64,000 bases of DNA from an uncultured Mageeibacillus sp. (GCA_964528645.1 CAZGSR010000004.1:3523-67522); one strand, 5' to 3'. Counted from the first letter of the stretch, positions 2,567 to 34,115 are shown. Notes: generated from the letters alone by a model not told the origin. Made by a program: numbers and translations.

Positions 2567-2577
2567 CCCCCCTCCCC

Positions 2578-2841: not shown

Positions 2842-2854
2842 CGTTGTGAGATTG

Positions 2855-2882: not shown

Positions 2883-2926
2883 GTGTCCCGGGCTACCAAA
2901 CAGCGCTTGTATAAATTGCAGAATAA

Positions 2927-3244
2927 TCAAATGTCAATGCTTTTTCTAAGGCATGCCTGCAGGCTATCGACTTTAAAGCTGGCACGATCAACCTCTATAT
3001 TGCGCTGGACTTCGCGCCTCTGGAGTATAAACCGGGCGATGTCCGGATCCTGATCGATAACAACGAGGAGATGCGGATCAGCCGCATCGAGCGCTTCGAG
3101 GAGGGTCGTTTTACCCTATCTTCAATCGTCGGATCTGACTTTTTCGATCCAAAAGGCAATATCCGCTATTTGGACACCAAACCGGGGTCTGGTGGATTGT
3201 CTGATTTTGAAGCCAAACTTATTGCCATTTATGAGGAGGCTTGA
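2927..3244 (+). pseudogene. 5'-truncated remnant (about 105 codons, no usable start) of the gene upstream of mcrC; presumably the C-terminus of an McrB-like AAA+ GTPase
   Basis: Frame 2 is open from the TAA at 2924-2926 to the TGA at 3242-3244. It reads ...DFKAGTINLYIALDFAPLEYKPGDVRILIDNNEEMRISRIERFEEGRFTLSSIVGSDFFDPKGNIRYLDTKPGSGGLSDFEAKLIAIYEEA*. There is no ATG, GTG or TTG before codon 49. The stop lies 3 nt before the mcrC ATG, which is operon-style coupling. Sequence upstream of 2927 switches to AT-rich promoter DNA. The McrB identity is inferred from context only. Confidence 0.4.
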
Positions 3245-3247
3245 TGG

Positions 3248-4525
3248 ATGGGTCACCTCCGGACGATCCGAATTTTTGAAGATACCGCAATCAATTTAGC
3301 ACTGTCAGATCAGGAAATTCGCGATATTCTGGCGTTGCGTTCCGTTATTGGTGATCACGCTGTCAATTTACAGGCCGACGGTCGGCTTCTGATGAGTCAT
3401 TACGTTGGATTTGCTCAGATCAATCGTACACGTCTCTTGATTTACCCGAAATATGCCCGTGCGATCGATCATGAAGAGGGCTGGAATCAGTCCTTCGATA
3501 TCTTGCTCAAATTACTGCTGGAGACTGGCTTTCTAGGGGTCAAACAACTTCCTACGGCCCAGGAGATGGCACAATGCCAAGGTGATATCCTGGAAATTCT
3601 CATTTCACTGTTTATCAAGGAACTTCTGCGTCTATTTCAACGTGACGTCAACCGAGGTTATCAAGACACTCATTCTAATGAACCCTTTGTCCGCGGCAAA
3701 ATCGATTTTGCCAACCATATCCGGCACAACAGCTATCGAAAACACATCCATGCATTGATCTACGAACACTTCACTGAAAACATCCTGATGAACCAGATAT
3801 TCAAATCGGTTCTGCTCCAGTTAGGGCAAATCTCCCGCTTGCGTGAGAACCGGATTCGCATCGGTCAGGCCTTGATCTGGCTGGAAGACATCGAAACGAT
3901 CACCCTGACCGATACGATCTGGGATCAGGTTGTGTTCACCAGATTGAATCATCCGTATCAGGTGCCTTTTCGCATGGCTCGTATGTTTTATCAGAATGCA
4001 TCGATCATTTTGAACAGTGGAGATTCCCAGTCGCTGAGTTTCCTTGTCCCGCTCAACCGGTTATTTGAGCAATATGTGTATAAAATTATTAAAGAGGCAG
4101 CAAGTCCTCTGGACCGCGTTGTGTATCAAGGACCTGTCGATTATCTGGCCTTTTATGGAGATAAACCTGCGTTTCAATTGCGTCCGGACATCAGCGTGAT
4201 CCGCCAGAATCAGGTGTACCAGATCTTCGATGCCAAGTATAAAGAGATCGCGTTTGTTGATCAAATACCAAAAATTGCGATGGGCGATCTCTACCAGATG
4301 CTGGCCTATAGCGTCCGATACGATTGTGCATTGATCACCTTAGTTTACCCGGCCATGATGGGGCAAACTTGCGACGAACTCATGGTATCAAGTTTATCTG
4401 TCCCTATACAGGGGGAAAATCTGACAATTCGGATCGTGCTCATCGATTTGCAGCAGGAGATTATTCAGACAGTCCACAAGTGGCGAGATAGGCTCGAGCA
4501 GGAGCACAACTGTCATCCAGTCTGA
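3248..4525 (+). CDS. mcrC: McrC-like subunit of a McrBC-type modification-dependent restriction system (PD-(D/E)xK nuclease)
   Basis: 425 aa. The C-terminal nuclease core reads LRPDISVIRQNQVYQIFDAKYKEI...MGDLYQMLAYSVRYDCALITLVYPA, which fits the McrC pattern PD...D-x-K-Y-K...DLYQM-x-AY. Confidence 0.7.
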   Translation: MGHLRTIRIFEDTAINLALSDQEIRDILALRSVIGDHAVNLQADGRLLMSHYVGFAQINRTRLLIYPKYARAIDHEEGWNQSFDILLKLLLETGFLGVKQLPTAQEMAQCQGDILEILISLFIKELLRLFQRDVNRGYQDTHSNEPFVRGKIDFANHIRHNSYRKHIHALIYEHFTENILMNQIFKSVLLQLGQISRLRENRIRIGQALIWLEDIETITLTDTIWDQVVFTRLNHPYQVPFRMARMFYQNASIILNSGDSQSLSFLVPLNRLFEQYVYKIIKEAASPLDRVVYQGPVDYLAFYGDKPAFQLRPDISVIRQNQVYQIFDAKYKEIAFVDQIPKIAMGDLYQMLAYSVRYDCALITLVYPAMMGQTCDELMVSSLSVPIQGENLTIRIVLIDLQQEIIQTVHKWRDRLEQEHNCHPV

Positions 4526-24786: not shown

Positions 24787-25370
24787 TAGCTACCTTTGTG
24801 GTGTCGTAAATGTGGAATCATGAACTGGATGCCATAGAGCAGGTAGACTACCAGTGCCCAGGCAACCGGAACGGCGAAAATGAAGTTGGCCAGATGCTGC
24901 TGGTCTGCAGGCAATAAAAACAGGGAGGCAAAGGCGGCGACAAAAAGCACCGTCCCCAGCTTGCCGTACCAGCGCGCCTGGACGATGACCTTGCGTTTTT
25001 TCAAGAGAAAATAGCCGCCGATCACCATCATGAATTCCTTGGCAAAAATGAAGGCCGGAACCCAGGCCGGCAAACGGCCGGTCAAGGTCATGGTCAGAGC
25101 CGTTGTCAGCTGGAAAACCTTGTCGACAAACGGGTCAAAGACGCGTCCGAAGTCGGATGTCTGATTGTAATGCCGTGCGATGTAGCCATCCAGGATGTCT
25201 GTGGTCCAGATGCCGACAAAAAAAACAAACGCCAGCGTGTTGTGTGACGCGCCGGCACTGATCGCCCAGGCCATGAAGGGGATGGCCAGAAGGCGAAGCA
25301 TCGTCAGGTAATTCGGAATCGTGGGCTCAAATCGCAATTTCATAGAGGCATTATAGCAATCTTGTCGCAT
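24786..25370 (-). CDS. pgsA: CDP-alcohol phosphatidyltransferase (phosphatidylglycerophosphate synthase-like)
   Basis: DILDGYIARHYNQTSDFGRVFDPFVDKV matches the D-G-x2-A-R-x8-G-x3-D-x3-D motif. The true start may be Met 25343. Confidence 0.8.
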   Translation of the reverse strand: MRQDCYNASMKLRFEPTIPNYLTMLRLLAIPFMAWAISAGASHNTLAFVFFVGIWTTDILDGYIARHYNQTSDFGRVFDPFVDKVFQLTTALTMTLTGRLPAWVPAFIFAKEFMMVIGGYFLLKKRKVIVQARWYGKLGTVLFVAAFASLFLLPADQQHLANFIFAVPVAWALVVYLLYGIQFMIPHLRHHKGS

Positions 25371-25440: not shown

Positions 25441-27243
25441 CTACCGAACCAGCCTCTTGTAATTCTGGAAATATTTAAGATAGCCACCGGCAAAATGTTG
25501 AATATCGTCGATCCGCATCCGTCCTCTGTCATTGCGAATGAAAACACCGTCCTGAGCTTGAGCAGGATTTGAAAAGTACATGACGTATTCTGGCCAACCG
25601 AAACTGCCGAGTGTGTATTTGATGCGATAATCAATAATCTCAAGGAAAGCCTTTTCGTTAAAATCATCCAGGTAATCGACGGAAATGCCCTCGGATACAA
25701 TCCTGTCGTAAAGTTCATATGTGACCAGCAAGAGTTCGAGTGACGTATGCCAGGCTGTAACACGATTCCGTATGGCTTCCAGATTATCCCCGGCATTGCG
25801 CAGCGCAAATTCAAAGTAGTCCTGCCTTGGAATGTATTGGGTGATCTCATTCATTGCATAAGCGATCCAATGATCGGCGTACTGTGTATAGTCTTGTGCA
25901 ATGAAACGATCAACAGCCAACGCTGCAGCATTCAGCCATTTCTCATCTCCAGTCAGCTTGTACAGCAGGGTCAGGGCAAAAGTTGCTTCCCCATCGTAAT
26001 AGATCGTACGGAATTCTTCTTTTCTGGTATAGCCAGGAAAATTCAGCACATGCCAGTATTGGCCTGTCTTTTCGTCCATCAGTTCAAGGATGCCGTTTCC
26101 GAGCTTGATGGCCAACTCCAAATCTTGAGGATTTTTATTAATTTCGCTGGCGGCAGCGAGGGCGATCACTGCCAAGGCATTGCCACCCAGTTTGATCTCA
26201 TTGTTTTTACGTTCAATCACAAAAGCTGTATCCGAATCTGCATATTCGACAAAGTCCTCCTTGAGATAGTTCAAGGATCGTTCGATGACAAGCGGCAAAT
26301 CAGGATCTCCAGTCAGTTTGTACAAGCTGACCAGATTCCAGATCGTACCGGCATGTCGGAGAATGTTGTAATCCGTCAATTCCTTTCCAGTATTGAGCCG
26401 GTAGCCATAAATGAAAGAGCCGTCCTCACGGGACATGGAAACGAGCTTGTCTGATGCGGCGCTGAGCACTTCAAAGGCGATGGAATCCGTGATTGAGATC
26501 AGCTGGCGCTGCCCATAGTAGTCTTTTTCGCTATCGAGGGGGATAATCTCGCCATTTTCGTCGCATAACCAGCCTTTGACTCGAAAAAGAGTTACGGTTT
26601 CGGGAACTGCTTTCACCGCTTTGCGGTGATTCGATTCGAGATATGTGTTGATGGCACCCAGATCTAGTTTGTTATTTGCGTAATCAATCAGTTCATTGAA
26701 ATTCAGCTCGGTTTCCAGAAAAGCTGTGCTGGCATCGTCTTCAAAGGAAATGCCATCCAAAAAAAAGCCCTCACTGCATGCTTTGATCCTTGACTCAGCT
26801 ACATCTCTCGAGACGCTTACTGAATCCAAAACAACATCGACCTTCAGCCAGACCGGCAAAATGCCCTGTCTGTCTATGGTCTTGCGCACTGCAGCGCCGG
26901 CGATATCCCAAGCTTGTGCGAGGGTTTGCCCTTTTCCGTGAACGACATGGGCCTGAGTGTCCCCATCGCTGACTGAAAAAAACACTTGATAATAACCGTT
27001 TGCTGCTGGATCGAGTGACAGGATTTGCTCATCAGAAAAGACAGACTTTGACAGACTGACTATTTTTTCTTCAAATAGGGAGTTGCGCGTATCTCTCGAC
27101 TTGAACGTACGCAAATAAGGCATGGCCCATATAACAACAGCCACAACTAAAACGATGGCAAGAAACAGGAACAGCAGCCTCAAGCGCTTCTTTTTATTTA
27201 GGTGGGTATCCGGTGTACGTCGTATCTCATTATGTTTATTCAT
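25441..27243 (-). CDS. Membrane-anchored extracytoplasmic protein with an alpha/alpha-toroid-like C-terminal half; function unknown
   Basis: 600 aa with an N-terminal basic stretch and a TM helix (LRLLFLFLAIVLVVAVVIWAM). Repeated helical hairpin-like segments include ILRHAGTIWNL, GGNALAVIALAAA and YYDGEATFALTLLYKLTG. The gene is AT-richer than its flanks, judged by eye. Confidence 0.45.
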   Translation of the reverse strand: MNKHNEIRRTPDTHLNKKKRLRLLFLFLAIVLVVAVVIWAMPYLRTFKSRDTRNSLFEEKIVSLSKSVFSDEQILSLDPAANGYYQVFFSVSDGDTQAHVVHGKGQTLAQAWDIAGAAVRKTIDRQGILPVWLKVDVVLDSVSVSRDVAESRIKACSEGFFLDGISFEDDASTAFLETELNFNELIDYANNKLDLGAINTYLESNHRKAVKAVPETVTLFRVKGWLCDENGEIIPLDSEKDYYGQRQLISITDSIAFEVLSAASDKLVSMSREDGSFIYGYRLNTGKELTDYNILRHAGTIWNLVSLYKLTGDPDLPLVIERSLNYLKEDFVEYADSDTAFVIERKNNEIKLGGNALAVIALAAASEINKNPQDLELAIKLGNGILELMDEKTGQYWHVLNFPGYTRKEEFRTIYYDGEATFALTLLYKLTGDEKWLNAAALAVDRFIAQDYTQYADHWIAYAMNEITQYIPRQDYFEFALRNAGDNLEAIRNRVTAWHTSLELLLVTYELYDRIVSEGISVDYLDDFNEKAFLEIIDYRIKYTLGSFGWPEYVMYFSNPAQAQDGVFIRNDRGRMRIDDIQHFAGGYLKYFQNYKRLVR

Positions 27244-27458
27244 GATTCAAATCTCTCATTCGAATATCTCAATCGAACAGAATCTTATCCATTATTGTAC
27301 TACTTCCTGATCGCGATTACTTGATGCTGAGCAAATCCGGACTCGTGTTTAACGTGTTTAATCTGTGTTGTAACTTGGCCTTTTTTATTTTCTGATCAAA
27401 TACCTGGTCAATTATTTAACAGACCTTGTAATTATTGAGACTTTTTTTTGTAATATTA

Positions 27459-27467
27459 TGGTATAAT
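27459..27467 (+). promoter_or_regulatory. Extended -10 promoter (TGgTATAAT) for the riboswitch-led surface-protein gene
   Basis: The sequence reads attaTGgTATAATaaaag, about 10 nt before the predicted aptamer 5' end. Confidence 0.45.
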
Positions 27468-27476
27468 AAAAGCGAG

Positions 27477-27570
27477 ATGGGGGCATTGACAACAGAGGGA
27501 TTATATGGACGCTTTCCCTCTGTCGAGCCAGCAGCGTAACCGACCATGATTGTTATGGTCGGTTTTTTTC
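27477..27570 (+). promoter_or_regulatory. Riboswitch-like leader 1 (aptamer 27477-27547 plus intrinsic terminator 27539-27570); resembles the c-di-GMP-II class
   Basis: AUGG...CCAU closes the element. A 9-bp helix forms between 27492-27500 and 27515-27523. Loop ACGCU (27509-27513) can pair with AGCGU (27533-27537). The conserved tail is GAGCCAGCAGCGUAACCGACCAU. The terminator stem ACCGACCAU/AUGGUCGGU plus U7 shares its left arm with the aptamer 3' strand. A paralogous copy lies at 31975-32070. Confidence 0.55.
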
Positions 27571-27597
27571 GTTAAGTCATGAAGGGAGTGATCAATA

Positions 27598-28788
27598 ATG
27601 AGTCGCAGAAACAGGTCATTAAAACGTCTCTTCGCCCTACTTTTCGGAACCATTCTGATTATCAGCAGCTTGGTAACAGTAAGTGCAGAAAACATGGAAA
27701 TCGTATTTGATCCCGGAATTCAGCTTGATAAAGTGGGTGAATTCCAGGATGATATCGTGGACGATGGCTTTGCGCAGCCCGGTGAAAAAATCAAATACAC
27801 CTATACGGTAGAAAACACCGGAACGATTCCATTGTACAACATCACACTCGTCGATGATGTCCTTGGAACAATTGCCGACGGCGATCCATTGCTTTTGCCT
27901 CCGATTGCTTTGAATGTTGTTGTGTTCACAGCGTATTACACGCTGACAGCAGCCGATATTGAAAATGGCAGCGTCACGAATCAGGCAACCGCAACAGGCT
28001 GGTTTCCTTGTTGGCAGGACCTTGATATGCAAGTCAGCCGCTGTCTAGACATCGGCGACGGCGATTGCGACGACGACGACGGCGATTGCGACGACGACGA
28101 CGACGGCGATTGCGACGACGACGACGGCGATTGCGACGACGACGACGACGGCGATTGCGACGACGACGACGGCGATTGCGACGACGACGATGATGATTTC
28201 GGATGTTCAGTTTCTGATGATGCGACCTGCACAGTCCTGCTTACGCCAGAGCCAGAAGATGGTGACGATGATGATGATGATGACGATGACGAAGAACGGT
28301 CAAGCGGAGATCCTGATGTAGATCTGGTCAAAACGGTGGATAAAACCAGTGCTAATGAAGGTGAGACTTTCACGTTCACAATCACAATCCACAATACCGG
28401 TGATACAAAATTCTCGATCACGGAACTGACCGATACCAATCTGAGTCCTTTGCCTGCAAATTTGCAAGAGCTGATTGGCATGGAAATTCCGGTCGACGGA
28501 AGCCTTACCAGAACGTACACCATCGTTCACAACGATGCTGGCACCTACCCGAATACCGCAGAAGTCAAGATCAGTGACGTAAACGGGAAAAAGGATTTTG
28601 ACAATGAATCCGTTACTGTTACCGTCAACGAACTTGAGGTGCAGGGTGCTATGATGGTCTTTGGTGCCGAGATGCCTCAGACAGGCGATGGTCCTGACGT
28701 CTTCTCAATCGGTGGTCTCATTATCCTGATCGTTGCTGGTGGTTCGCTGTGGCTCTTGTACAAGAAGAGCACGAAATCCAATTCCTGA
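27598..28788 (+). CDS. Secreted cell-wall-anchored protein: signal peptide, DUF11-type repeat domains, Asp/Cys-rich repeat region, C-terminal MPQTG sorting signal
   Basis: The signal peptide is ...LVTVSAEN. The segments PGEKIKYTYTVENTGTIPLYNITLVDD and ANEGETFTFTITIHNTGDTKFSITELTD are DUF11-like. (GDCDDDD/GDCDDDDD)x6 is followed by a D9 run. The C-terminus is AEMPQTGD, then a hydrophobic helix, then KKSTKSNS. Confidence 0.8.
   Translation: MSRRNRSLKRLFALLFGTILIISSLVTVSAENMEIVFDPGIQLDKVGEFQDDIVDDGFAQPGEKIKYTYTVENTGTIPLYNITLVDDVLGTIADGDPLLLPPIALNVVVFTAYYTLTAADIENGSVTNQATATGWFPCWQDLDMQVSRCLDIGDGDCDDDDGDCDDDDDGDCDDDDGDCDDDDDGDCDDDDGDCDDDDDDFGCSVSDDATCTVLLTPEPEDGDDDDDDDDDEERSSGDPDVDLVKTVDKTSANEGETFTFTITIHNTGDTKFSITELTDTNLSPLPANLQELIGMEIPVDGSLTRTYTIVHNDAGTYPNTAEVKISDVNGKKDFDNESVTVTVNELEVQGAMMVFGAEMPQTGDGPDVFSIGGLIILIVAGGSLWLLYKKSTKSNS
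28060..28197 (+). repeat. Perfect in-frame tandem repeat, alternating 21- and 24-nt units (ggcgattgcgac(gac)3-4), encoding GDCDDDD(D) six times
   Basis: The units are 28060-28080, 28081-28104, 28105-28125, 28126-28149, 28150-28170 and 28171-28197. The first five are identical apart from one extra gac. Confidence 0.9.
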
Positions 28789-28821
28789 CCAACATGATCG
28801 ATCGATCATACACTATCGTTG

Positions 28822-28863
28822 GGGTCCTGCAGCAAACCCATCTCGCTGCAGGACCCGCTTTTT
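28822..28863. terminator. Bidirectional intrinsic terminator between convergent genes (GGGTCCTGCAGC / GCTGCAGGACCC, then GCTTTTTTA)
   Basis: A 12-bp perfect stem with an 11-nt loop and a T-run on the plus strand. Confidence 0.7.
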
Positions 28864-28866
28864 TAT

Positions 28867-29733
28867 TCAACCGATGAACAACTGCTCGATGTAGGTTGTA
28901 CCATTCTTGATCGTACGGCTGACAGCAATCCCGGAATAAGCCGCATTCATGATGTTCTTCCGGTGAGATGGCGAATTGAGCCAAGCTGAGACGATGCATT
29001 CTGGCGCACTCTCCTCGGAGGTGTCAATGGCATAATTCTCACCGCTGGCAGTCACAGATAAATTGATTTCTGCCAGGACTGTATAAAAGGGATCACCGTT
29101 CGGCCGCAAATGCGGGGATGGGCTGCTCGGCAATTCCAAGACCCGGATATCGGCTGCCTGGCACAGAGTGCCATGCAAAGTGAGCGCAGGTAAGCCATTT
29201 TCCTTGCGTGCCGCATTGGTCAGACGGACCACCTCATTGACAAAGCCATCTGTTGACTCGACAACTAAAACCACTGGCTCCGGGGCGGGCAGAGTGACAA
29301 CTGCAGGGGCCGTTTGTGCAGGTTTGTTGCTTGTGGGGACGGGTGTAGGCTCTGTCTTAGGTTCAATCTGGCGTTCAGGAGCCGAACGGCTGACAAGTTC
29401 TGGTTCTACCAAGGGCAGTGGCGACTCATGAGCTGGCCAGGGATCCTGTGCCGTTGGGTATTCACCCCAGATTGAGTTCTTGGCCTCTGCGATCCAGTCG
29501 GATACCTGGCAGGAAGGGTCTGATTCAACGGACTCTGCATGCAGGTTCAGCTGAGATCCATTCGCAATGGAAATGAAAAGAATCACGAGAACGATAAAAA
29601 AACGGAAAAGAATGACAAATGGAAACGGCCGGGTTTTCAAATGTGGTTTCAAGATATGGAATCCTTTCTGCGGTTGTTGATCTCGTTGAAAACCACAGAA
29701 GCCAGATAGGATAATAATGTCGAACCATTCCAC
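28867..29733 (-). CDS. Secreted CAP/SCP (PR-1-like, YkwD-type) domain protein, paralogue 1
   Basis: The C-terminal CAP core reads GENYAIDTSEESAPECIVSAWLNSPSHRKNIMNAAYSGIAVS...EQLFIG, preceded by a Pro/Thr-rich linker and a signal anchor. A TTG at 29652 with GAAAGGA upstream is a likelier start than the track start 29733. Confidence 0.75.
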   Translation of the reverse strand: MEWFDIIILSGFCGFQRDQQPQKGFHILKPHLKTRPFPFVILFRFFIVLVILFISIANGSQLNLHAESVESDPSCQVSDWIAEAKNSIWGEYPTAQDPWPAHESPLPLVEPELVSRSAPERQIEPKTEPTPVPTSNKPAQTAPAVVTLPAPEPVVLVVESTDGFVNEVVRLTNAARKENGLPALTLHGTLCQAADIRVLELPSSPSPHLRPNGDPFYTVLAEINLSVTASGENYAIDTSEESAPECIVSAWLNSPSHRKNIMNAAYSGIAVSRTIKNGTTYIEQLFIG

Positions 29734-29848
29734 GAGATTTTCGTCTTTTATACACGATATTGATAGCTAGATCAAGTAATAAGTCATAATATGTCAATAT
29801 ATGGTTATTCCATCCCTCCCTTTCATCATTATTTGCGTGTTTCAATAC

Positions 29849-30760
29849 CTATCCAACAAAGAGTTGGATAAAATAGGCTTTGCTATCATAGACGAAATAA
29901 CCAATGCCAATCTGCGTAAACTGGCAGCCCAGGATATTGCTCCTGTGGGCTGGTGAATCCAGCCAGGCCGCAACAATCGCTTCGACTGAGAATGCACCGG
30001 CAGTGGCACAGGCGTAATTCTCAGCACAGGCCTGCATCGTGATGGCATATTCCGCGAAAACCGTGTAAAAGTCGCGTCCATCAGGACGCTGGTGTGACTT
30101 GAAATCAGCCAGTTCTTTGACCCTGCACAGGGCTGCCTGGTCCAAGCTGCTGCTCACCGAAAGTGCTGCAAGTCCTGCTTCCTGTCGGACTAGATTGGTC
30201 TCTGCCAGAATTGCAGCAGTAACAGCCGCAAAATCCAACACTGCGCTTGTTTCTGCGGATTTTGTCTCAGGCATTGCCTCTGCTGGGCAACTCGTTGGCT
30301 GTGTGGTTTCAGGGGTCGTTTTGGCAGTTTCGCCGATGGGTGGTTCAGTTGGAACAGGAGTTGGTACAGGAGTTGGTACAGGTGTCGGAGTCGGTTTTGG
30401 CGTAGGAGTCGCAGATGGTTTTGGCGTGGGTTTCGAGGTCGGAAGCGAAGTTGGAATACCAGTCGGTACCGGATCAGGCTCCAGTATCTGGGTTGTCGAT
30501 TGAACATCATATGAAATATCCGTAGTGTCAACCGCAGTTGCAAGGATCACAGTCTGTACCAAATGATCCCTCACCGGTTCGACTGTTTTTGTATCATCAG
30601 GCATGGTCTGGGCTGCAACCGGTTGGGGACGTTCGATTCCCTCCCCTACTGCCAAGGACGCCGGCGTAATAAACTGGCCAGGGGTTCCCTCATGCCAGGC
30701 TACAGCAGCTAACAGAATCGGTATGACCAAGATGGCAATAAAAAATAATCTACGGATCAT
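29849..30760 (-). CDS. Secreted CAP/SCP domain protein, paralogue 2
   Basis: AENYACATAGAFSVEAIVAAWLDSPAHRSNILGCQFTQIGIG...IQLFVG. There is a (PTPKPxxT) linker. The start is placed at Met 30760 (MIRRLFFIAILVIPILLAAVA) rather than 30793. Confidence 0.75.
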   Translation of the reverse strand: MIRRLFFIAILVIPILLAAVAWHEGTPGQFITPASLAVGEGIERPQPVAAQTMPDDTKTVEPVRDHLVQTVILATAVDTTDISYDVQSTTQILEPDPVPTGIPTSLPTSKPTPKPSATPTPKPTPTPVPTPVPTPVPTEPPIGETAKTTPETTQPTSCPAEAMPETKSAETSAVLDFAAVTAAILAETNLVRQEAGLAALSVSSSLDQAALCRVKELADFKSHQRPDGRDFYTVFAEYAITMQACAENYACATAGAFSVEAIVAAWLDSPAHRSNILGCQFTQIGIGYFVYDSKAYFIQLFVG

Positions 30761-30953
30761 CTCACAACCCTTGCACATAAGGCGGTCAACCACATGCGAT
30801 CAGAGAATCGAAAAACGAGATGTCAGCACCGGTCGATTGAGTTTTCGATGATCCTATCCTACCATGACTGAGCAGAACGAATGATGGGTTATGATTAACT
30901 TTGGATTACAATTTCCTATCTTTTGGGGCAAAGAACCTGGTTCTGAAGCAATA

Positions 30954-31778
30954 TCACTTTTTCGCCTTTCGGGCAACCACAACCATCCGACCTTCATCAA
31001 TGTGATAACTGCACGTTGAAAGTGTCAAAAGCTGGTCGCCAAAGACGGGACGAATGCCCGTGTCATAGAGAGACAGTTTTCGAACTTGATCTACATAGTC
31101 GTTGAATTCTGCCTCAGTATCAGCCTGGAAAAAACGGTAGTAAATGAATTCCTTTGAGTCCGCCGGGTAAACCTGGGACATGAAAACGGCGAAGATCTCG
31201 TACTCCCCAGTTTCATAGATGGTATCAAACTGGACGATTGGGTGAGAAGTGAAATAGGATCGGCTGTAGTACTTGCCAAGGGTTGCAAACATGCTGCCAT
31301 CCTTCATGTTGTGAGCATGGACAAGAACATTGGTTGAGCGAGGATTGATACTGGAACGATAGTCGACAAACGGCAAGCCATGCTTGCTATCCTTACCTGC
31401 AAAATCACGGTACAAATAGTATTCGCCGTCCTGTGGTGTATACATGACAGGGTAGTCGACTTCGGAATTTTCAATCTTGATCCAGCCAACCAGATCGGGA
31501 TTCTTATCAAATAGCGTTTGGTACTGGGGTAAAACCTCAAGACTCATTTCTGGTGTAGGATCTGGTCCGGATGGCTCTATCGTGGTCACAGGCTCATGAT
31601 CGTCTGGTGCCGTTTCCAGGATGGCTGAGGTCGTCTGGACCGCTTGGACCAGAGAGGATAACTGGCGCAGATTGTTCCGATCCTGGACACTCTGGTAATA
31701 GCCAAAAAGCAGATAACTGACATAGGCAAGAACAGCCATACCATAGAGGACTAATGCAATTCTGAACTTCTTTTTCAT
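30954..31778 (-). CDS. srtB: Class B sortase
   Basis: An N-terminal TM helix is followed by DLVGWIKIENSEVDYPVMYTPQDGEYYLYRDF, VLVHAHNM and LLTLSTCSY (catalytic Cys), then the C-terminal RMVVVARK. Confidence 0.85.
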   Translation of the reverse strand: MKKKFRIALVLYGMAVLAYVSYLLFGYYQSVQDRNNLRQLSSLVQAVQTTSAILETAPDDHEPVTTIEPSGPDPTPEMSLEVLPQYQTLFDKNPDLVGWIKIENSEVDYPVMYTPQDGEYYLYRDFAGKDSKHGLPFVDYRSSINPRSTNVLVHAHNMKDGSMFATLGKYYSRSYFTSHPIVQFDTIYETGEYEIFAVFMSQVYPADSKEFIYYRFFQADTEAEFNDYVDQVRKLSLYDTGIRPVFGDQLLTLSTCSYHIDEGRMVVVARKAKK

Positions 31779-31938
31779 ATCGATCGCTCCGATCAGACAT
31801 GGCCGGCTTTCTTTTTGCTGATTGGATTATAGCATGCCTTGACCTCGGAATCGGTCAGGCAAGATACCCTTTTCTATCGGTGCGATCAAATAGAGAATAG
31901 GAAAATTTGAAAGCAGTCAGCACGGTAACCTGTGTTTC

Positions 31939-31958
31939 AGATAATGATTATCATTTTC
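31939..31958. promoter_or_regulatory. Fur box (17/19 match to GATAATGATAATCATTATC; 14/15 match to the 7-1-7 form TGATAATnATTATCA)
   Basis: GATAATGATTATCATTTTC lies at 31940-31958, in the divergent region between srtB and the second surface-protein gene, about 17 nt upstream of riboswitch leader 2. Confidence 0.6.
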
Positions 31959-31974
31959 ATGCATACTTGAATCA

Positions 31975-32070
31975 ATGGAAGCAGTGAAACTCAGGACGTA
32001 TTGGACGCTTGTCCTGAGAGGAGCCAGTAGCGTAACCGGCCATGTGTATCTAATCAAGGCCGGTTTTTTC
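31975..32070 (+). promoter_or_regulatory. Riboswitch-like leader 2 (aptamer 31975-32043 plus terminator 32034-32070); paralogue of leader 1, resembling c-di-GMP-II
   Basis: The architecture matches leader 1, with a fully compensated helix (CUCAGGAC 31990-31997 / GUCCUGAG 32011-32018). It has the same loop GGACGCUU and the tail GAGCCAGUAGCGUAACCGGCCAU. The terminator AACCGGCC/GGCCGGUU plus U6 follows. Confidence 0.55.
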
Positions 32071-32105
32071 GTTTTTGTATTTCTCGATTAAGAAAGGGGC
32101 AGCTT

Positions 32106-32795
32106 ATGAAACGAAAATCTACATTCCTGAAAGTCTATTTCTCGTTCCTGGCCATTTTAGTTTTATCTTTCAATCTGGTCTCCGTGGTTTCTGCAGATGG
32201 ATCACGCAAATCTGACAACAAGTGGAAACCCAAGGTAACCACAACGGCCACCAGATGTGAACCCACGACAAAAGCCACTACGAAAACCACGGAGGAGACC
32301 ACCCAGACTTCGACCGAAGCCACGTCCGAGGAGACCAGCCAGACTCCGACTGAATCCGCGACCGAGGCAACCACCCAGACTACGACTGAATCCACGACTG
32401 AGGCGACCAGCCAGACTCCGACTGAATCCGCGACCGAGGCAACCACCCAAGCTGCGACCGAATCCACATCCGAGGAGACCAGCCAGACTCCGACTGAATC
32501 CGCGACTGAGGCTACCACTGAGCAATCATCTGAAACCACTGCTGCAGCGACATCCGCAAGAACATCATCTACTTCTTCGGTTGCTGTTTTTGGTGAGACA
32601 TTTGTAAGCTCAAATGATCCGACAACGAATTCCATAATCGTTGAAGCCGGTGAAATGCCAAGCACTGGAGATTCAGTCTATCCTGTCAAAGTGATTGCAT
32701 TCCTGACGTTGTTGCTGATCGGTACGTTGCTGATTTTCTGGAAATACAAAATCCAGGAGGAACCCATCAACAAGGATAAAGTGATAAGTCCGTGA
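32106..32795 (+). CDS. Secreted Thr/Glu/Ser-rich cell-wall-anchored protein with a C-terminal MPSTG sorting signal
   Basis: The signal peptide is ...VSVVSADG, followed by 24-aa repeats EETSQTPTESATEATTQTTTESTT. The C-terminus is GEMPSTGD, then a hydrophobic helix, then WKYKIQEE. Confidence 0.75.
   Translation: MKRKSTFLKVYFSFLAILVLSFNLVSVVSADGSRKSDNKWKPKVTTTATRCEPTTKATTKTTEETTQTSTEATSEETSQTPTESATEATTQTTTESTTEATSQTPTESATEATTQAATESTSEETSQTPTESATEATTEQSSETTAAATSARTSSTSSVAVFGETFVSSNDPTTNSIIVEAGEMPSTGDSVYPVKVIAFLTLLLIGTLLIFWKYKIQEEPINKDKVISP
32328..32519 (+). repeat. 72-nt in-frame tandem repeat, about 2.7 copies
   Basis: The units start at 32328, 32400 and 32472 and are nearly identical (gag-gMg-acc-agc-cag-act-ccg-act-gaa-tcc-gcg-acY-gag-gcW-acc-acc...). 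Confidence 0.85.
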
Positions 32796-32806
32796 TTATT
32801 CCAAAC

Positions 32807-32840
32807 AAAAGGCTGCCCGTTGATTGGCAGCCTTTTGTTG
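32807..32840. terminator. Intrinsic terminator between convergent genes (AAAAGGCTGCC / GGCAGCCTTTT)
   Basis: An 11-bp stem with an 8-nt loop. An A-run lies before and a T-run after, so it could act in both directions. Confidence 0.7.
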
Positions 32841-32888
32841 ATCTTTCGAACTTGAAGAAATGATCTGCGGCATTCTGTCTGACTCTGC

Positions 32889-33764
32889 TCAGCCGATGAA
32901 GAGTTGTTCGAAATATTCCTTGTCACCGATGACAGCGTGGCCGATACCGATCTGTTTGTAGGATGCGTTCATGATGTTCTTGCGATGGCCAGGGCTATTC
33001 ATCCAGGCGGTGACGATCTGCTCGGGAGAATAGGCATTGGCGGTGCCGATGGCGTAATTCTCGCCGCCGGTTTTCGGCTTCAGGCCGACTTCGGCAAAGA
33101 CGGTGTAGAACTGGGCACCGTCAGGACGCAGGTGCGGCGAGGGGCTATCAGGCAGTTCGACGACGCGGATGGCGGCAGCTTCCTGAGCATTGCTATTGAT
33201 GGTCAGGGCGGAGAGGCCCTCTGCGGCGCGTGCTTCGTTGACCAGGCGCAGGATCTCATCGGTCCAGTAATCACCGGTGGATTCGATGGCTGCAGGAGCT
33301 TCGGTGGCAACAGGGGCAGGAGCGGCGACGGCTGCGGCTTCGACAGTTGCGGCCGGGGTAGGCTGGGCTTCCTGAGCTTTGACTGGAGCGGCTTCTTCAA
33401 CTTTTTCAACCGGAGCCTCGGTCTTTTTTTCGACTGGGGCTTCTGCCTTGGCTGGCTCGGCTTTGACGGCAGCCGGGGCTGGTGCAGCGGTTTTGGTTTC
33501 AACTTTGGCTGTGGCTTTGGCTTCAACTTTGGCGGGAGCTTCTGTCACGACGGTTTCCGGACGGATGATTTCTGGCCAGGCAACTTCAGCTTTGGGATAT
33601 TCGCCGAAGATTTTCGCCTTGGCCTGGGCGATCTGGTCATGGACGCGGACAATGCCAGCCGCCTGGGCTGTCACGCTGCTGATGCCGATGATGCTGGAAA
33701 GAACGACGGCAGCACTGATGACCTGGAACGCTTTGCGGGCTACGCCGGAAGACAAAAAGGACAT
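32889..33764 (-). CDS. Secreted CAP/SCP domain protein, paralogue 3 (Ala/Glu/Lys/Pro-rich linker)
   Basis: GENYAIGTANAYSPEQIVTAWMNSPGHRKNIMNASYKQIGIG...EQLFIG. The start is placed at Met 33764 (MSFLSSGVARKAFQVISAAVVLSSIIGISSVTAQA), which has GGGAGG 7 nt upstream. The track start 33920 would read through the riboswitch. Confidence 0.8.
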   Translation of the reverse strand: MSFLSSGVARKAFQVISAAVVLSSIIGISSVTAQAAGIVRVHDQIAQAKAKIFGEYPKAEVAWPEIIRPETVVTEAPAKVEAKATAKVETKTAAPAPAAVKAEPAKAEAPVEKKTEAPVEKVEEAAPVKAQEAQPTPAATVEAAAVAAPAPVATEAPAAIESTGDYWTDEILRLVNEARAAEGLSALTINSNAQEAAAIRVVELPDSPSPHLRPDGAQFYTVFAEVGLKPKTGGENYAIGTANAYSPEQIVTAWMNSPGHRKNIMNASYKQIGIGHAVIGDKEYFEQLFIG

Positions 33765-33774
33765 TAAAAAACCT

Positions 33775-33875
33775 CCCAGTTTCGGTAGCTGGCTGCCACG
33801 GGAGATGTCCCAGAGGCCCTTTAGCTTTGCGTCCCAGGTTTTCACCTGGTTTGCCTTTATCGGCTGAAGGCTTAT
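33775..33875 (-). promoter_or_regulatory. c-di-GMP-I (GEMM-I) riboswitch in the leader of CAP paralogue 3
   Basis: The minus strand reads AUAAAGGCAAACC-AGGU-GAAA-ACCU-GGGACGCAAAGCUAAAGGGCCUCUGGGACAUCUCCCGUGGCAGCCAGCUACCGAAACUGGGAGGUUUUUUAAUG. It has the hallmark GGCAAACC, a GNRA-capped P1 hairpin, and GGGACGCAAAGC. The segment AUCUCCCG can alternatively pair with UGGGAGGU (the SD), which is followed by U6. Confidence 0.8.
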
Positions 33876-33940
33876 CGATGCCCTCGCCTGATTTTCTTTT
33901 GGTCGGCAGGCTGCTGTCACACAACTTCCTGCTTGACGCC

Positions 33941-33969
33941 AGATTACAATATCTTTACAGATTTGTCAA
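33941..33969 (-). promoter_or_regulatory. Candidate promoter of the GEMM-I leader (TTGACA-17-TAATCT)
   Basis: The minus strand reads gaTTGACAaatctgtaaagatattgTAATCTgg. It predicts a leader of about 170 nt. Confidence 0.45.
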
Positions 33970-34023
33970 TCATCGCCAGTCAAAATGTAATAAATAGCAC
34001 TCACAGATAATCACTATCCAGAT

Positions 34024-34071
34024 AAAGACCGTCAACCTGCAAGGCTTGTTCTTGCGGGCCTGACGGTCTTT
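34024..34071 (-). terminator. Hairpin downstream of pfkA (AAAGACCGTCA / TGACGGTCTTT with an internally paired loop)
   Basis: An 11-bp outer stem plus inner GCAAG/CTTGC pairing. It has only a short T-run, so this is a modest terminator call. Confidence 0.4.
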
Positions 34072-34115
34072 ACAACAGAATGCTCAATGAAAAGTCCAGA
34101 AATGATTAAATCACA

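What the first reader, a model, noticed from the sequence alone, without database searches (positions are those of the whole stretch)
25441..34115. Accessory surface island: class B sortase, two (E)MPxTG substrates, three secreted CAP/SCP paralogues, three c-di-GMP-type riboswitch leaders and a Fur box
An ~8.7-kb block lies between pgsA and pfkA, and its 25.4-32.9 kb part looks clearly more AT-rich than the flanks (by eye, not computed). From left to right it holds a 600-aa membrane-anchored alpha/alpha-toroid-like protein. Next comes a class-II-like riboswitch driving a DUF11/Asp-Cys-repeat protein ending in MPQTG, which converges on CAP paralogue 1. Then come CAP paralogue 2 and srtB. Then a Fur box and a second class-II-like riboswitch drive a Thr/Glu-repeat protein ending in MPSTG, which converges on CAP paralogue 3. 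CAP paralogue 3 has its own GEMM-I riboswitch. The two-gene module (riboswitch-led sortase substrate facing a CAP protein) therefore occurs twice. As I recall from Clostridioides difficile, c-di-GMP-II riboswitches switch on SrtB substrates (CD2831, CD3246). A c-di-GMP-I riboswitch there switches off the ZmpI protease that releases them. Here no ZmpI-like metalloprotease is present, and secreted CAP-domain proteins occupy the partner position. I am not aware of a described functional link between bacterial CAP/SCP proteins, sortase-B substrates and c-di-GMP. This looks like a candidate c-di-GMP-switched (and partly iron-responsive) surface-remodelling system with an uncharacterised CAP component. 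I saw no integrase or transposase at either border.
Basis: partly seen in the sequence, partly recalled or inferred. Interest (0 to 1): 0.75.

Follow-up and report, generated by a model that had tools for sequence, protein, structure and literature searches.

The report
c-di-GMP-switched sortase-B adhesin locus with CAP proteins
An uncultured Clostridia bacterium carries a conserved gene cluster in which the signalling molecule c-di-GMP (and probably iron, through a Fur box) controls two wall-anchored surface proteins, their dedicated sortase and three exported CAP-domain proteins; it is a new variant of a circuit known from Clostridioides difficile, with CAP proteins in place of the releasing protease.

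Summary
Between pgsA and pfkA lie a class B sortase, two substrates ending GAEMPxTGD + TM + basic tail, three CAP (YkwD-type) paralogues, two c-di-GMP-II riboswitches, one c-di-GMP-I riboswitch, a Fur box and a 600-aa six-hairpin protein. GC is 0.48 against 0.57 in the flanks.

Corrections. It is not a recent island: the same locus, with the same riboswitches, Fur box and low GC, sits at the same site in relatives whose SrtB is 55-72% identical. Outside this clade the linkage disappears: 2 of 80 distant SrtB loci hold a CAP gene, and none gave a class II hit. The class I aptamer scores best with Rfam's "GGC" variant model but has the canonical A at the variant-defining position. The 600-aa gene is a lineage-specific insertion.

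Mechanism. Both class II elements are ON switches, because the terminator's 5' arm is the aptamer's ACCGRCC strand. The class I element acts on the ribosome-binding site of CAP3, but two conserved, mutually exclusive masking helices leave its sign unresolved. The ZmpI-like antagonism is therefore unproven.

The closest precedent for the CAP part is enterococcal PrgA, a CAP domain implicated in processing the sortase-anchored adhesin PrgB.

Verdict: a new variant of a known kind, moderately interesting.

The parts
25441..27243 (-). 600-aa protein with an N-terminal TM helix and an (alpha/alpha)6 six-hairpin ectodomain. Probably a lineage-specific insertion rather than a core part of the system.
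   Evidence: No Pfam hit. The family has more than 2000 representatives. Its profile hits cellobiose 2-epimerase, GH76 and YteR in the PDB. Relatives are fused to Mur_ligase and PGA_cap domains. No homologue exists in the 95 loci fetched by then.
27462..27467 (+). TATAAT -10 box directly upstream of the first class II aptamer
   Evidence: Read from the sequence. The same TATAAT/TATAAT-like box abuts the aptamer in relatives.
27470..27554 (+). c-di-GMP-II riboswitch aptamer no. 1
   Evidence: RF01786 at 51.1 bits (gathering score 53.5), E 3.7e-9, full-length match. Orthologues score 58.7-58.8 bits.
27538..27571 (+). Intrinsic terminator whose 5' arm is the aptamer's AACCGACCAU strand, making this an ON-type expression platform
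   Evidence: Terminator scan. Fold energy -17 kcal/mol, z -4.4.
27598..28788 (+). Sortase substrate 1: signal peptide, CLIPPER_2 domain, Asp/Cys repeats, CLIPPER/DUF11 domain, then ...VFGAEMPQTGD + TM + KKSTK tail
   Evidence: Pfam and NCBIfam, sorting-signal scan, repeats at 28056-28190.
28822..28863 (+). Terminator hairpin plus U-run between substrate 1 and CAP1
   Evidence: Fold energy -32.7 kcal/mol, z -5.5.
28867..29652 (-). CAP paralogue 1 (261 aa): signal peptide, conserved helix, Pro-rich linker and a C-terminal CAP domain
   Evidence: PF00188 at 7.9e-11. Start codon taken from the gene call on the same-species contig L001.
29849..30760 (-). CAP paralogue 2 (303 aa), directly downstream of srtB
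   Evidence: PF00188 at 3.4e-16. No structured element or terminator in the srtB-CAP2 spacer (z 0.39). A CAP gene follows srtB in L006, L008 and L013.
30954..31778 (-). Class B sortase
   Evidence: TIGR03064 at 138.3 bits (cut-off 153.75). Best PDB matches are all SrtB, with B. anthracis at 1.9e-38. H156, C256 (TLSTC) and R264 are invariant in the family alignment.
31939..31953 (.). Fur box AGATAATGATTATCA, overlapping candidate -10 boxes of both divergent promoters (srtB and substrate 2)
   Evidence: The only such locus in 64 kb (two overlapping matches), 0.08 expected. A minus-strand TTGATT-17-GATAAT promoter-like site overlaps it. Conserved 14-15 nt upstream of the aptamer in L006, L007, L011 and L012.
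31969..32050 (+). c-di-GMP-II riboswitch aptamer no. 2
   Evidence: RF01786 at 54.0 bits, above the gathering score of 53.5.
32034..32069 (+). Intrinsic terminator whose 5' arm is the aptamer's AACCGGCC strand (ON-type)
   Evidence: Sequence. Fold energy -15 kcal/mol, z -3.0.
32106..32795 (+). Sortase substrate 2: signal peptide, Thr/Glu-rich repeats, then ...IIVEAGEMPSTGD + TM + basic tail. It lacks the ~130-aa N-domain that its orthologues carry.
32804..32839 (.). Bidirectional terminator-like hairpin (A-run / 14-bp stem / U-run) between substrate 2 and CAP3
   Evidence: Fold, z -3.8.
32889..33764 (-). CAP paralogue 3 (291 aa): signal peptide, helix, ~110-aa disordered Ala/Pro/Glu/Lys linker and a CAP domain
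   Evidence: PF00188 at 8.3e-16. In the AF2 model the CAP domain has pLDDT above 90 and the linker below 50. Foldseek matches 4IFA, 4D53, 4H0A and 6Z9K.
33762..33779 (-). Translation initiation region of CAP3, directly abutting P1: SD GGGAGG (33777-33772), U6 (33771-33766), AUG (33764-33762)
   Evidence: Sequence. Conserved in 10 leaders.
33780..33864 (-). c-di-GMP-I riboswitch aptamer. The best model is RF03167, but it has the canonical A in GACGCAAAGC.
   Evidence: 67.4 bits against a gathering score of 59. Alignment of 10 leaders. The L013 orthologue scores best on RF01051, at 69.9 bits.
33865..33890 (-). 5' leader domain: GGC...GCC clamp on the 5' strand of P1, plus the covarying P0 hairpin (GAGGGC / GCCUUC) whose 3' arm CCUUC is an anti-SD
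33941..33969 (-). Promoter-like TTGACA-17-TAATCT upstream of the class I leader
   Evidence: Sequence. The block is conserved in L006 and L011. This is inference only.

Best explanation
This is a chromosomal, clade-specific surface-protein locus of an uncultured Clostridia (Eubacteriales) lineage.

Anchoring. A class B sortase recognises a dedicated sorting signal, [GA][AG]E[MI]PxTG[DE] followed by a TM helix and a basic tail, and anchors two adhesin-like proteins to the wall. One is a CLIPPER/DUF11 stalk protein with Asp/Cys repeats. The other is a Thr/Glu-rich stalk protein.

Class II control. Each substrate gene is transcribed from a promoter that abuts a c-di-GMP-II aptamer. Without ligand, the aptamer's ACCGRCC strand forms the 5' arm of an intrinsic terminator. 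With c-di-GMP that strand is held in the aptamer and transcription reads through, so the switch is ON.

Iron control. The promoter of substrate 2, and probably the divergent srtB-CAP2(-CAP1) promoter, carries a Fur box. That gene would therefore need both Fur release (classically, low iron) and high c-di-GMP.

CAP proteins. Three exported CAP-domain proteins belong to the locus. One type is probably co-transcribed with srtB. Another, CAP3, is controlled at its ribosome-binding site by a c-di-GMP-I riboswitch whose sign I could not determine.

Proposed CAP role (inferred). The CAP proteins act on the anchored substrates or on their wall environment. They may process them as enterococcal PrgA is thought to process PrgB, possibly at the TG-less copy of the sorting strand that every substrate carries just upstream of the true motif.

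Shown here: the genes, the RNA elements, their conservation and their linkage. Inferred: ligand binding, ON logic, Fur binding, sortase specificity and CAP activity.
For: Elements identified:
-.

Synteny:
- The order pfkA, [class I] CAP, substrate [class II], srtB, CAP, CLIPPER substrate [class II], pgsA-mutS2 holds in loci with SrtB 55-72% identical (L006, L008, L009, L011, L013).
- The riboswitches are in the same places in those loci.
- Low GC is conserved there too.

Class II riboswitches and substrates:
- 11 of the 12 class II aptamers found in the clade precede an ORF ending in EMPxTG[DE] or EIPQTGD + TM + basic tail. The twelfth precedes a substrate-like ORF cut by the contig end.
- The terminators overlap the aptamer's 3' strand.
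- C. difficile class II riboswitches upstream of the SrtB substrates CD2831 and CD3246 are experimentally ON (PMC4591827).

Fur box:
- It is conserved at the same offset in four related loci.

CAP-sortase linkage is specific:
- Only 2 of 80 distant SrtB loci have a CAP gene within 10 kb.
- None of the 80 gave a class II hit with the model built from this clade's aptamers.
- None of the 7 also checked with Rfam showed any c-di-GMP riboswitch.

Class I leader:
- It is conserved in front of CAP3 orthologues in at least 8 contigs.

CAP domain:
- It is confidently modelled, and H211, E235, S257 and H260 are invariant in the family alignment.
- It is structurally related to the PrgA CAP domain.
- PrgA is implicated in PrgB processing.

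TG-less duplicate of the sorting strand:
- It is visible in the substrates.
Against: - No experiment supports any step.
- The sign of the class I switch is unresolved.
- The first class II aptamer is 2.4 bits below Rfam's gathering score.
- SrtB scores below the TIGR03064 equivalog cut-off.
- CAP activity is speculative. Protease activity of CAP domains is itself weakly documented: PrgA did not cleave PrgB in vitro.
- The Ser-x-x-His arrangement here differs from PrgA's adjacent Ser476-His477.
- One relative (L014, SrtB 48% identical) has srtB and a riboswitch-led substrate but no CAP gene in the stretch available.
- The window's substrate 2 has lost the N-terminal domain of its orthologues and so may be a degenerate copy.
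Confidence: 0.6

Rival explanations
1. ZmpI-like antagonism. c-di-GMP represses CAP3 while inducing the substrates. CAP3 is a releasing enzyme that shaves the adhesins at low c-di-GMP.
For: - The gene arrangement mirrors zmpI(class I)/CD2831(class II) in C. difficile.
- An invariant anti-SD, CCUUC, sits directly 5' of P1. It is stored in a covarying hairpin (P0) and can extend P1 over the SD, and in the window over AUG plus codons 2-3 (duplex -21.4 kcal/mol, z -3.5).
- With the aptamer enforced, the SD is paired in all 10 leaders (P unpaired 0.00-0.24).
- The pair G29:C114 corresponds to the outermost P1 pair of the Rfam consensus.
Against: - The ligand-free fold also masks the SD, through the 5' strand of P2 (UAAAGGGCCUCU:GGAGGUUUUUUA, z -1.5 to -4.0). 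That helix is conserved in 10/10 leaders, with substitutions that keep or improve it.
- The P1 extension has mismatches in 3 of 10 leaders.
- No protease activity is shown for this CAP subfamily.
Confidence: 0.3
2. Co-induction. The class I element is an ON switch, so CAP3 is made together with the adhesins at high c-di-GMP. It would then act as a maturation or anti-aggregation partner, as prgA is co-expressed with prgB.
For: - The alternative helix between the 5' strand of P2 and SD + U-run is the minimum-free-energy fold of the short (P0-to-AUG) constructs of all seven leaders folded without constraint, and the SD is masked in all ten ligand-free ensembles.
- It is incompatible with the aptamer, and it is about 6-12 kcal/mol more stable than the aptamer-enforced fold in those constructs.
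- L008b changes GCC:GGU to GUC:GAC, and L097 turns a G.U pair into G:C in this helix.
- The conserved U-run is explained by pairing with UAAAGGG.
- A 5' clamp on P1 (CGGC:GCCG) resembles the binding-incompetent apo state of the three-state add adenine ON switch (from my own knowledge).
Against: - It leaves the invariant anti-SD CCUUC next to P1 unexplained.
- With the aptamer enforced, the model still pairs the SD.
Confidence: 0.3
3. The CAP genes are bystanders. They would be ordinary YkwD-type exported wall or spore proteins that merely share a variable surface-gene hot spot with the sortase system, with CAP3 an independent member of the c-di-GMP regulon.
For: - Bacterial CAP/YkwD proteins are widespread and are fused to many wall-binding modules (CWB2, LysM, Big_2, choline-binding) without sortases.
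- DalA, a weakly related lipoprotein, binds peptidoglycan and acts in division.
- The locus tolerates insertions: the 600-aa gene here and IS200/IS605 in L009.
Against: - The order srtB, then CAP, then a converging substrate is kept across loci with SrtB 55-72% identical, while other content varies.
- CAP follows srtB without a terminator.
- CAP is near SrtB in only 2 of 80 loci outside the clade, so the linkage is not a general neighbourhood effect.
Confidence: 0.25
4. An Isd-like iron or haem acquisition system: a Fur-regulated SrtB anchoring a ligand-binding receptor.
For: - A Fur box lies in the srtB/substrate 2 promoter region and is conserved.
- SrtB is closest to the B. anthracis, Listeria and S. 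aureus SrtB enzymes of the isd loci.
- Orthologues of substrate 2 carry a ~130-aa all-beta N-domain with a YxYxY strand.
- The top Foldseek hits for that domain, though not significant, are NEAT domains.
Against: - There is no NEAT Pfam or PDB sequence hit.
- Foldseek E-values are 0.02-0.3 with TM-scores of 0.14-0.2, which is no real superposition.
- No haem transporter or oxygenase genes are in the locus.
- The window's copy lacks the domain altogether.
- The sorting motif is xPxTG, not NPQTN.
Confidence: 0.08
5. A recently acquired genomic island, which would explain the low GC.
For: GC is 0.476 against 0.573, and the content varies between relatives.
Against: - The insertion site and core gene order are the same in five related genomes, and each shows the same 4-14 point GC deficit.
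- There is no integrase, repeat border or tRNA. Rfam finds only the two riboswitches in the whole window at gathering score.
Confidence: 0.05

Closest known systems
C. difficile SrtB / CD2831 + CD3246 / ZmpI (PPEP-1) c-di-GMP circuit (Peltier et al. 2015, PMC4591827)
   Same: - A class B sortase with xPxTG-type substrates.
- Each substrate gene is led by a c-di-GMP-II riboswitch.
- The adjacent gene for an exported protein is led by a c-di-GMP-I riboswitch.
- A repeated motif sits just upstream of the sorting signal.
   Different: - There is no M34/PPEP metalloprotease. A CAP-domain protein sits in that position, and further CAP paralogues follow srtB.
- srtB is inside the locus.
- The sorting signal is GAEMPxTG[DE] rather than (S/P)PxTG.
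- The class I element acts on the RBS rather than through a separate terminator, and its sign is unknown.
- A Fur box adds a second input.
Enterococcus faecalis pCF10 PrgA-PrgB (bioRxiv 10.1101/2020.06.18.156562; PDB 6Z9K/6Z9L)
   Same: - A bacterial CAP domain is held away from the cell on a long tether.
- It is encoded next to a sortase-anchored adhesin.
- It is implicated in that adhesin's post-translational processing.
- A His/Glu/His cavity is present, with a nearby Ser.
   Different: - PrgA is itself LPXTG-anchored on a coiled-coil stalk. The CAP proteins here have only an N-terminal signal peptide and a disordered linker.
- The structural match is weak (Foldseek E 1e-3, TM 0.33-0.41).
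- The motif here is Ser-x-x-His, not Ser-His.
- PrgA is plasmid-borne, pheromone-regulated and not under c-di-GMP control.
Bacterial YkwD/SCP-type CAP proteins (B. anthracis 4IFA, S. aureus SAV1118 4H0A, Borrelia BB0689 4D53; TIGR02909)
   Same: - They are the best sequence and structure matches: profile E 2.8e-33 to 4IFA, and Foldseek top hits.
- TIGR02909 matches at 60-75 bits.
   Different: - The scores are far below the TIGR02909 cut-off of 171.
- None of these proteins has a known function, riboswitch or sortase link.
Isd loci of S. aureus, B. anthracis and Listeria (Fur-regulated SrtB + NEAT proteins)
   Same: SrtB is encoded in the locus with its substrate, and a Fur box lies in the promoter region.
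   Different: - There is no NEAT domain, haem transporter or NPQTN motif.
- c-di-GMP riboswitches are present here.

Membership tests
Class B sortase (TIGR03064 / PF04203) | Sortase domain with a catalytic His, a TLxTC Cys and an Arg | tested here: met
   PF04203 at 1.5e-10. H156, C256 (LTLSTC) and R264 are invariant in the alignment of 20 homologues.
Class B sortase (TIGR03064 / PF04203) | Score at or above NCBIfam's equivalog cut-off | tested here: not met
   138.3 bits against a cut-off of 153.75. All 15 PDB matches are nevertheless class B sortases (1.9e-38 to 3e-15).
Class B sortase (TIGR03064 / PF04203) | Cleaves its sorting motif and links the protein to peptidoglycan | not testable with these tools
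   Only inferred, from 14 clade ORFs (11 distinct proteins) that end in EMPxTG[DE]/EIPQTGD + TM + basic tail next to srtB.
c-di-GMP-II riboswitch (RF01786) | Covariance-model score at or above the gathering score | tested here: met
   The aptamer at 31969-32050 scores 54.0 against 53.5.
c-di-GMP-II riboswitch (RF01786) | Covariance-model score at or above the gathering score (second copy) | tested here: not met
   The aptamer at 27470-27554 scores 51.1 against 53.5, with E 3.7e-9 and a full-length match. Orthologues at the same position score 58.7-58.8.
c-di-GMP-II riboswitch (RF01786) | Expression platform coupled to the aptamer | tested here: met
   The terminator's 5' arm equals the aptamer's ACCGRCC strand in both window copies and in the relatives.
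c-di-GMP-I riboswitch (RF01051 clan CL00126) | Covariance-model score at or above the gathering score | tested here: met
   67.4 bits on RF03167 (gathering score 59). Lower-scoring matches to related models of the same clan also passed their gathering scores but were hidden as overlaps. The L013 orthologue scores 69.9 on RF01051.
c-di-GMP-I-GGC variant (RF03167) | G instead of A at the intercalating position (A47 of Vc2), which names the variant. This reading of the name is from my own recollection. | tested here: not met
   All 10 leaders read GACGCAAAGC, whereas the RF03167 consensus reads GACGCGAAgC. I therefore file it as a canonical-site class I aptamer.
c-di-GMP riboswitches (both classes) | Binds c-di-GMP | not testable with these tools
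CAP / SCP / PR-1 superfamily (PF00188) | CAP domain at or above the Pfam cut-off, with an alpha-beta-alpha sandwich | tested here: met
   43-61 bits against a cut-off of 21.1 for all three paralogues. In the AF2 model the CAP domain (about residues 161-291) has pLDDT 92-98, and Foldseek matches CAP structures.
CAP / SCP / PR-1 superfamily (PF00188) | Conserved His/Glu cavity residues | tested here: met
   H211, E235 and H260 (plus N236, S257 and N263) are invariant in 38 sequences. The fourth acidic residue was not checked.
PrgA-like CAP protease | Adjacent Ser-His catalytic pair, and proteolytic processing of a neighbouring adhesin | tested here: inconclusive
   The motif here is S257-P-x-H260, not Ser-His. 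The fold match is weak. Activity cannot be tested.
C. difficile-type c-di-GMP / SrtB / ZmpI circuit | A PPEP/ZmpI metalloprotease under an OFF class I riboswitch | tested here: not met
   None of the seven island proteins matches a protease family. CAP3 holds the position, and the sign of its riboswitch is unresolved.
Fur regulon | Match to the 7-1-7 Fur box TGATAATnATTATCA in a promoter | tested here: met
   14 of 15 positions match at 31939-31953, with 0.08 expected. The site is conserved in four related loci. Fur binding itself was not tested.
Isd / NEAT haem-uptake system | NEAT domain in the SrtB substrate | tested here: not met
   No Pfam or PDB sequence hit. Foldseek hits to NEAT domains are not significant (E at least 0.02, TM at most 0.2). 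The window copy has no such domain.
Six-hairpin (alpha/alpha)6 glycosidase/epimerase superfamily (600-aa protein) | Profile similarity to solved (alpha/alpha)6 enzymes | tested here: met
   Cellobiose 2-epimerase at 1.9e-6, GH76 at 3e-5, plus YteR and AGE-family isomerases. Catalytic residues were not examined.

The most novel reading that the evidence does not exclude
The YkwD-type CAP proteins are the missing enzymatic partners of this sortase-B system. They would be tethered hydrolases that trim or release the wall-anchored adhesins at the TG-less duplicate of the sorting strand, with one paralogue set by c-di-GMP through a class I riboswitch. That would give bacterial CAP/SCP proteins their first defined substrate and physiological role. 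It would also show that ZmpI/PPEP and CAP are interchangeable solutions for c-di-GMP-controlled adhesin turnover.
Probability: 0.2. Interest if true: 0.8.

Novelty: new variant of a known kind. Interest (0 to 1): 0.55.

Why it matters
c-di-GMP control of sortase substrates through riboswitches is so far documented in one organism, C. difficile.

- **A second version of the circuit.** This locus is an independent, conserved version in an uncultured Clostridia lineage, with different parts: a new sorting signal, CAP proteins in place of the PPEP protease, and a Fur box placed directly before a riboswitch. The Fur box plus riboswitch would form a two-input gate, with iron acting at initiation and c-di-GMP at elongation.
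- **A lead on bacterial CAP proteins.** CAP/SCP proteins are very common in bacteria and have no established function. A conserved genetic link to a sortase, its substrates and a c-di-GMP riboswitch is one of the few concrete leads to what they do.
- **An unusual class I leader.** Two conserved rival RBS-masking helices flank a short P1, which makes it an interesting case for riboswitch mechanics.

Tried and rejected
- **Compact terminator for the class I element (UCUCCCG:UGGGAGG + U6).** Rejected. The 5' half is part of a covarying distal P2 stem (GGGA:UCCC, GGG:CCC, GGGG:CCCC), and the pairing fails in L009 and L013.
- **Using L011's 565-aa gene to place the 600-aa protein under a class II riboswitch.** Rejected. 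That gene is a third EMPxTG substrate, not a homologue.
- **NEAT-like reading of the orthologues' N-domain.** No sequence hit was found, and only non-significant fold hits.
- **Metagenome scan with the class I core pattern.** It gave only 6 contigs, too few for covariation statistics. MAFFT alignment of the 10 leaders shifts the register of the SD and P0, so I did not run the count of structure pairs and compared the helices by hand instead.
- **Genome-contig scan with the SrtB alignment.** These were useful as a background set but not for naming the organism.
- **L100.** This distant class I aptamer with the same P2 motif has a different platform and was uninformative.
- **The PNAS 2017 paper that defined the GGC variant.** It is not held, so what defines that variant rests on my memory.
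- **Literature search for c-di-GMP riboswitch + CAP/YkwD/SCP.** Nothing relevant was found in the held library.

Full report
**1. What is there**

The block 25441-34115 lies between pgsA (CDP-alcohol phosphatidyltransferase, 24786-25370) with mutS2 on one side and pfkA with dnaE on the other. The wider window holds core genes: glycogen metabolism, recG, ftsZ and the dcw cluster.

GC is 0.476 for 25441-32888, against 0.573 for the rest of the window. CAP3 alone is GC-rich, at 0.588.

The genes, from left to right:
- A 600-aa protein (-).
- A CLIPPER_2/DUF11 protein ending VFGAEMPQTGD + TM + KKSTK (+).
- CAP1 (-).
- CAP2 (-).
- srtB (-).
- A Thr/Glu-repeat protein ending VEAGEMPSTGD + TM + basic tail (+).
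- CAP3 (-).

These assignments rest. DUF11 and DUF7507 have recently been renamed CLIPPER and CLIPPER_2. They are CnaA-like isopeptide stalk domains of fibrillar adhesins (bioRxiv 10.1101/2025.04.25.650565).

SrtB scores 138 bits on TIGR03064, just under the equivalog cut-off. All of its PDB matches are class B sortases, and His, Cys (TLSTC) and Arg are invariant in the family alignment.

**2. RNA elements and the Fur box**

Rfam finds a c-di-GMP-II aptamer at 31969-32050 (54.0 bits, gathering score 53.5). It finds a second at 27470-27554 (51.1 bits, E 3.7e-9). It finds a class I aptamer at 33780-33864 on the minus strand (67.4 bits on RF03167).

Each class II aptamer starts directly after a -10 box. 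Each is followed by a hairpin plus U-run whose 5' arm is the aptamer's own AACCG(A/G)CC strand. Ligand binding should therefore prevent termination, which makes these ON switches. This matches the experimentally ON class II switches of the C. difficile SrtB substrates (PMC4591827).

The Fur box AGATAATGATTATCA (31939-31953) is the only such locus in the window (two overlapping matches), where 0.08 matches are expected. It lies 16 nt upstream of the second class II aptamer and 161 nt upstream of the divergent srtB. It overlaps a minus-strand promoter-like site, TTGATT-17-GATAAT, so it may govern both transcription units.

**3. The locus is old and clade-specific, not a recent island**

Proteins 55-72% identical to this SrtB are encoded at the same place in other metagenome-assembled genomes, which carry the labels 'Eubacteriales bacterium' or 'Clostridia bacterium'. 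The gene order there is pfkA, CAP, substrate (reverse strand), srtB, CAP, CLIPPER substrate (reverse strand), pgsA-mutS2.

The riboswitches sit at the same positions in those genomes: class I before the pfkA-side CAP (in L009, before the pgsA-side CAP instead) and class II before every substrate. The Fur box recurs 14-15 nt upstream of the class II aptamer of substrate 2 in L006, L007, L011 and L012. The GC deficit of 4-14 points is seen in each of these genomes.

Content does vary between relatives:
- L011 has a third riboswitch-led substrate.
- L009 carries IS200/IS605 copies.
- L014 (SrtB 48% identical) shows no CAP gene in the stretch available.
- The 600-aa gene occurs only in the window's own lineage.

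I also examined 80 more distant SrtB loci, about 40% identical and mostly from Lachnospiraceae. Only 2 have a CAP gene within 10 kb. None has a class II hit with a model built from this clade. Seven of them, checked with Rfam, show no c-di-GMP riboswitch at all. The sortase-CAP-riboswitch linkage is thus a conserved trait of one lineage.

**4. The sorting signal**

Eleven of the 12 class II aptamers found in the clade precede an ORF ending in [GA][AG]E[MI]PxTG[DE], a hydrophobic stretch and a basic tail. The twelfth precedes a substrate-like ORF cut by the contig end. This is an xPxTG signal like the (S/P)PxTG of C. difficile SrtB, but with a longer conserved strand.

Every substrate also carries a second copy of that strand, without the TG, 10-30 residues upstream. 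Examples are EVQGAMM-VFGAEMPQTGD, VVQGAEMPVPVV...EVQGAEMPETGD and VVEGATMPEATLMVAGAEMPSTGE. In C. difficile the ZmpI cleavage sites cluster in exactly this position. This is a lead, not a result.

**5. The class I leader**

Ten leader variants were compared.

- All read GACGCAAAGC. That is the canonical A at the position which, as I recall, is G in the 'GGC' variant that names RF03167, and the model's own consensus shows G there. I therefore treat the aptamer as having a canonical c-di-GMP site.
- P1 as modelled is only 2-3 bp long.
- Immediately 3' of P1 come GGGAGG, a run of 5-7 U and the AUG of CAP3. There is no separate terminator, so control is at the ribosome-binding site.
- Immediately 5' of P1 lies a hairpin, P0, that covaries: GAGGGC/GCCUUC, AAGGUA/UACCUU, AGGCA/UGCCU and others. 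It is flanked by a CGGC:GCCG clamp on the 5' strand of P1.
- The 3' arm of P0 is always CCUUC or a near variant, which is an anti-SD.

Two masking helices compete for the SD.

(a) CCUUC(AG) pairs with CUG(G)GAGG and extends P1. In the window this continues over the U-run, the AUG and codons 2-3 (-21.4 kcal/mol, z -3.5). In this case the ligand would repress.

(b) The 5' strand of P2, UAAAGGGCCUCU, pairs with GGAGGUUUUUUA (-9 to -17 kcal/mol, z -1.5 to -4.0 in all ten leaders). In this case the ligand would activate.

Helix (b) shows substitutions that keep or improve it: GUC:GAC in L008b and G.U to G:C in L097. Helix (a) has mismatches in 3 of 10 leaders, but it explains the invariant anti-SD and the P0 device. 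Nearest-neighbour folding masks the SD both without constraint and with the aptamer enforced.

I therefore cannot assign the sign, and I put it near 50:50.

**6. The CAP proteins**

All three paralogues pass Pfam CAP. CAP1 is 41% and CAP2 30% identical to CAP3. Each has an N-terminal signal peptide, a long low-complexity Pro/Ala/Thr/Glu/Lys linker and a C-terminal CAP domain, with no sorting signal.

In the CAP3 model the domain has pLDDT above 90 and the linker is disordered. H211, E235, N236, S257, H260 and N263 are invariant in 38 homologues.

Close homologues of CAP3 exist only in this clade. Beyond it there are only generic YkwD-type matches. The nearest solved structures are uncharacterised bacterial SCP proteins: 4IFA, SAV1118 and BB0689.

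The CAP domain of enterococcal PrgA also appears among the structural matches. PrgA presents a CAP domain about 40 nm from the wall. A Ser476 mutant loses surface exclusion, and PrgA is implicated in cleavage of the LPXTG adhesin PrgB, although in-vitro cleavage was not obtained. This is a described link between a bacterial CAP protein and a sortase substrate. It is the best functional model for the CAP genes here.

Several features fit joint function:
- A CAP gene follows srtB without a terminator, and does so in L006, L008 and L013.
- Each substrate converges on a CAP gene, with a terminator hairpin between them.

A weaker alternative is wall binding, as for DalA.

**7. Other parts**

*The 600-aa protein.* It belongs to a large family without a Pfam model. 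The family profile matches (alpha/alpha)6 epimerases and glycosidases. Some members are fused to Mur-ligase, PGA_cap or ATP-grasp modules. This points to a role in exopolymer metabolism. I see no evidence that it belongs to the sortase system.

*The N-domain of substrate 2.* Orthologues of substrate 2 carry a ~130-aa all-beta N-domain, which also occurs in Amycolatopsis LPXTG proteins. The window copy has lost it. Its model (pLDDT 80-91) gives no significant fold match. The top, non-significant hits are NEAT domains, so an Isd-like reading is not supported.

**8. Verdict**

The new aspects are:
- The conserved recruitment of CAP proteins, one of them under a class I riboswitch.
- A Fur box placed in front of a class II riboswitch.
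- The extended EMPxTG signal with its TG-less duplicate.

CAP function and the sign of the class I switch remain open. I rate the finding a new variant of a known kind, with interest 0.55.

Noticed in passing
L008:13755-14090 and L013:3807-4157: A class I c-di-GMP aptamer with the same leader design precedes only a 10-codon ORF (MFKKSHFISY* / MFRKSIFNFY*), then a conserved hairpin and, 200-250 nt further on, pgsA-mutS2. In L009 a riboswitch-led CAP gene occupies that spot. This is either a relic of a deleted CAP gene or a leader that now acts on pgsA.
   Followed up: partly
window 28700-28760 and 32640-32700; related substrates in L006, L008, L009, L011 and L013: Every EMPxTG substrate has a second copy of the pre-sorting strand, without the TG, 10-30 residues upstream of the true motif. 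It could be a decoy or a cleavage site.
   Followed up: partly
window 28056-28190: The Asp/Cys repeat (GDCDDDD...) is a 45-bp unit repeated three times at 100% identity, which suggests recent expansion. Relatives carry HEGDCDDGDD, EDGDCDDDED or GDHDGTCPTDPEH repeats in their CLIPPER-type substrates, so a metal-binding or disulfide role is possible.
   Followed up: no
L006:9199-9591, L011:9202-9594, L008:8970-9380, L011:16444-16857: A ~130-aa all-beta N-terminal domain (VKGG..YxYxY..GLRAPLNxGGQxPxISH) with no Pfam or PDB match occurs in orthologues of the Fur-box substrate and in Amycolatopsis LPXTG proteins. The window's copy has lost it.
   Followed up: partly
window 29500-29560 (CAP1) and 33600-33660 (CAP3): CAP1 and CAP3 share a short helix just after the signal peptide, D(W/Q)IA(E/Q)AK..I(W/F)GEYP, ahead of the disordered linker. 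CAP2 lacks it.
   Followed up: no
window 20-4525: An AAA_11/AAA_12 + MTES_1575 nuclease + DUF3320 protein sits next to a McrBC-like gene, with a local GC dip to 0.476. It looks like a small defence islet.
   Followed up: no
L009:12548-17924: The equivalent locus in this relative holds two IS200/IS605 Y1_Tnp genes and an HTH_38 gene. The pfkA-pgsA interval is therefore an insertion hot spot.
   Followed up: no
window 25441-27243 and family P0246-P0395: The 600-aa six-hairpin domain defines a large family (more than 2000 cluster representatives) with no Pfam model. In other genomes it is often fused to Mur-ligase, PGA_cap or YheC/D ATP-grasp modules, which points to poly-gamma-glutamate-like polymer metabolism.
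   Followed up: partly
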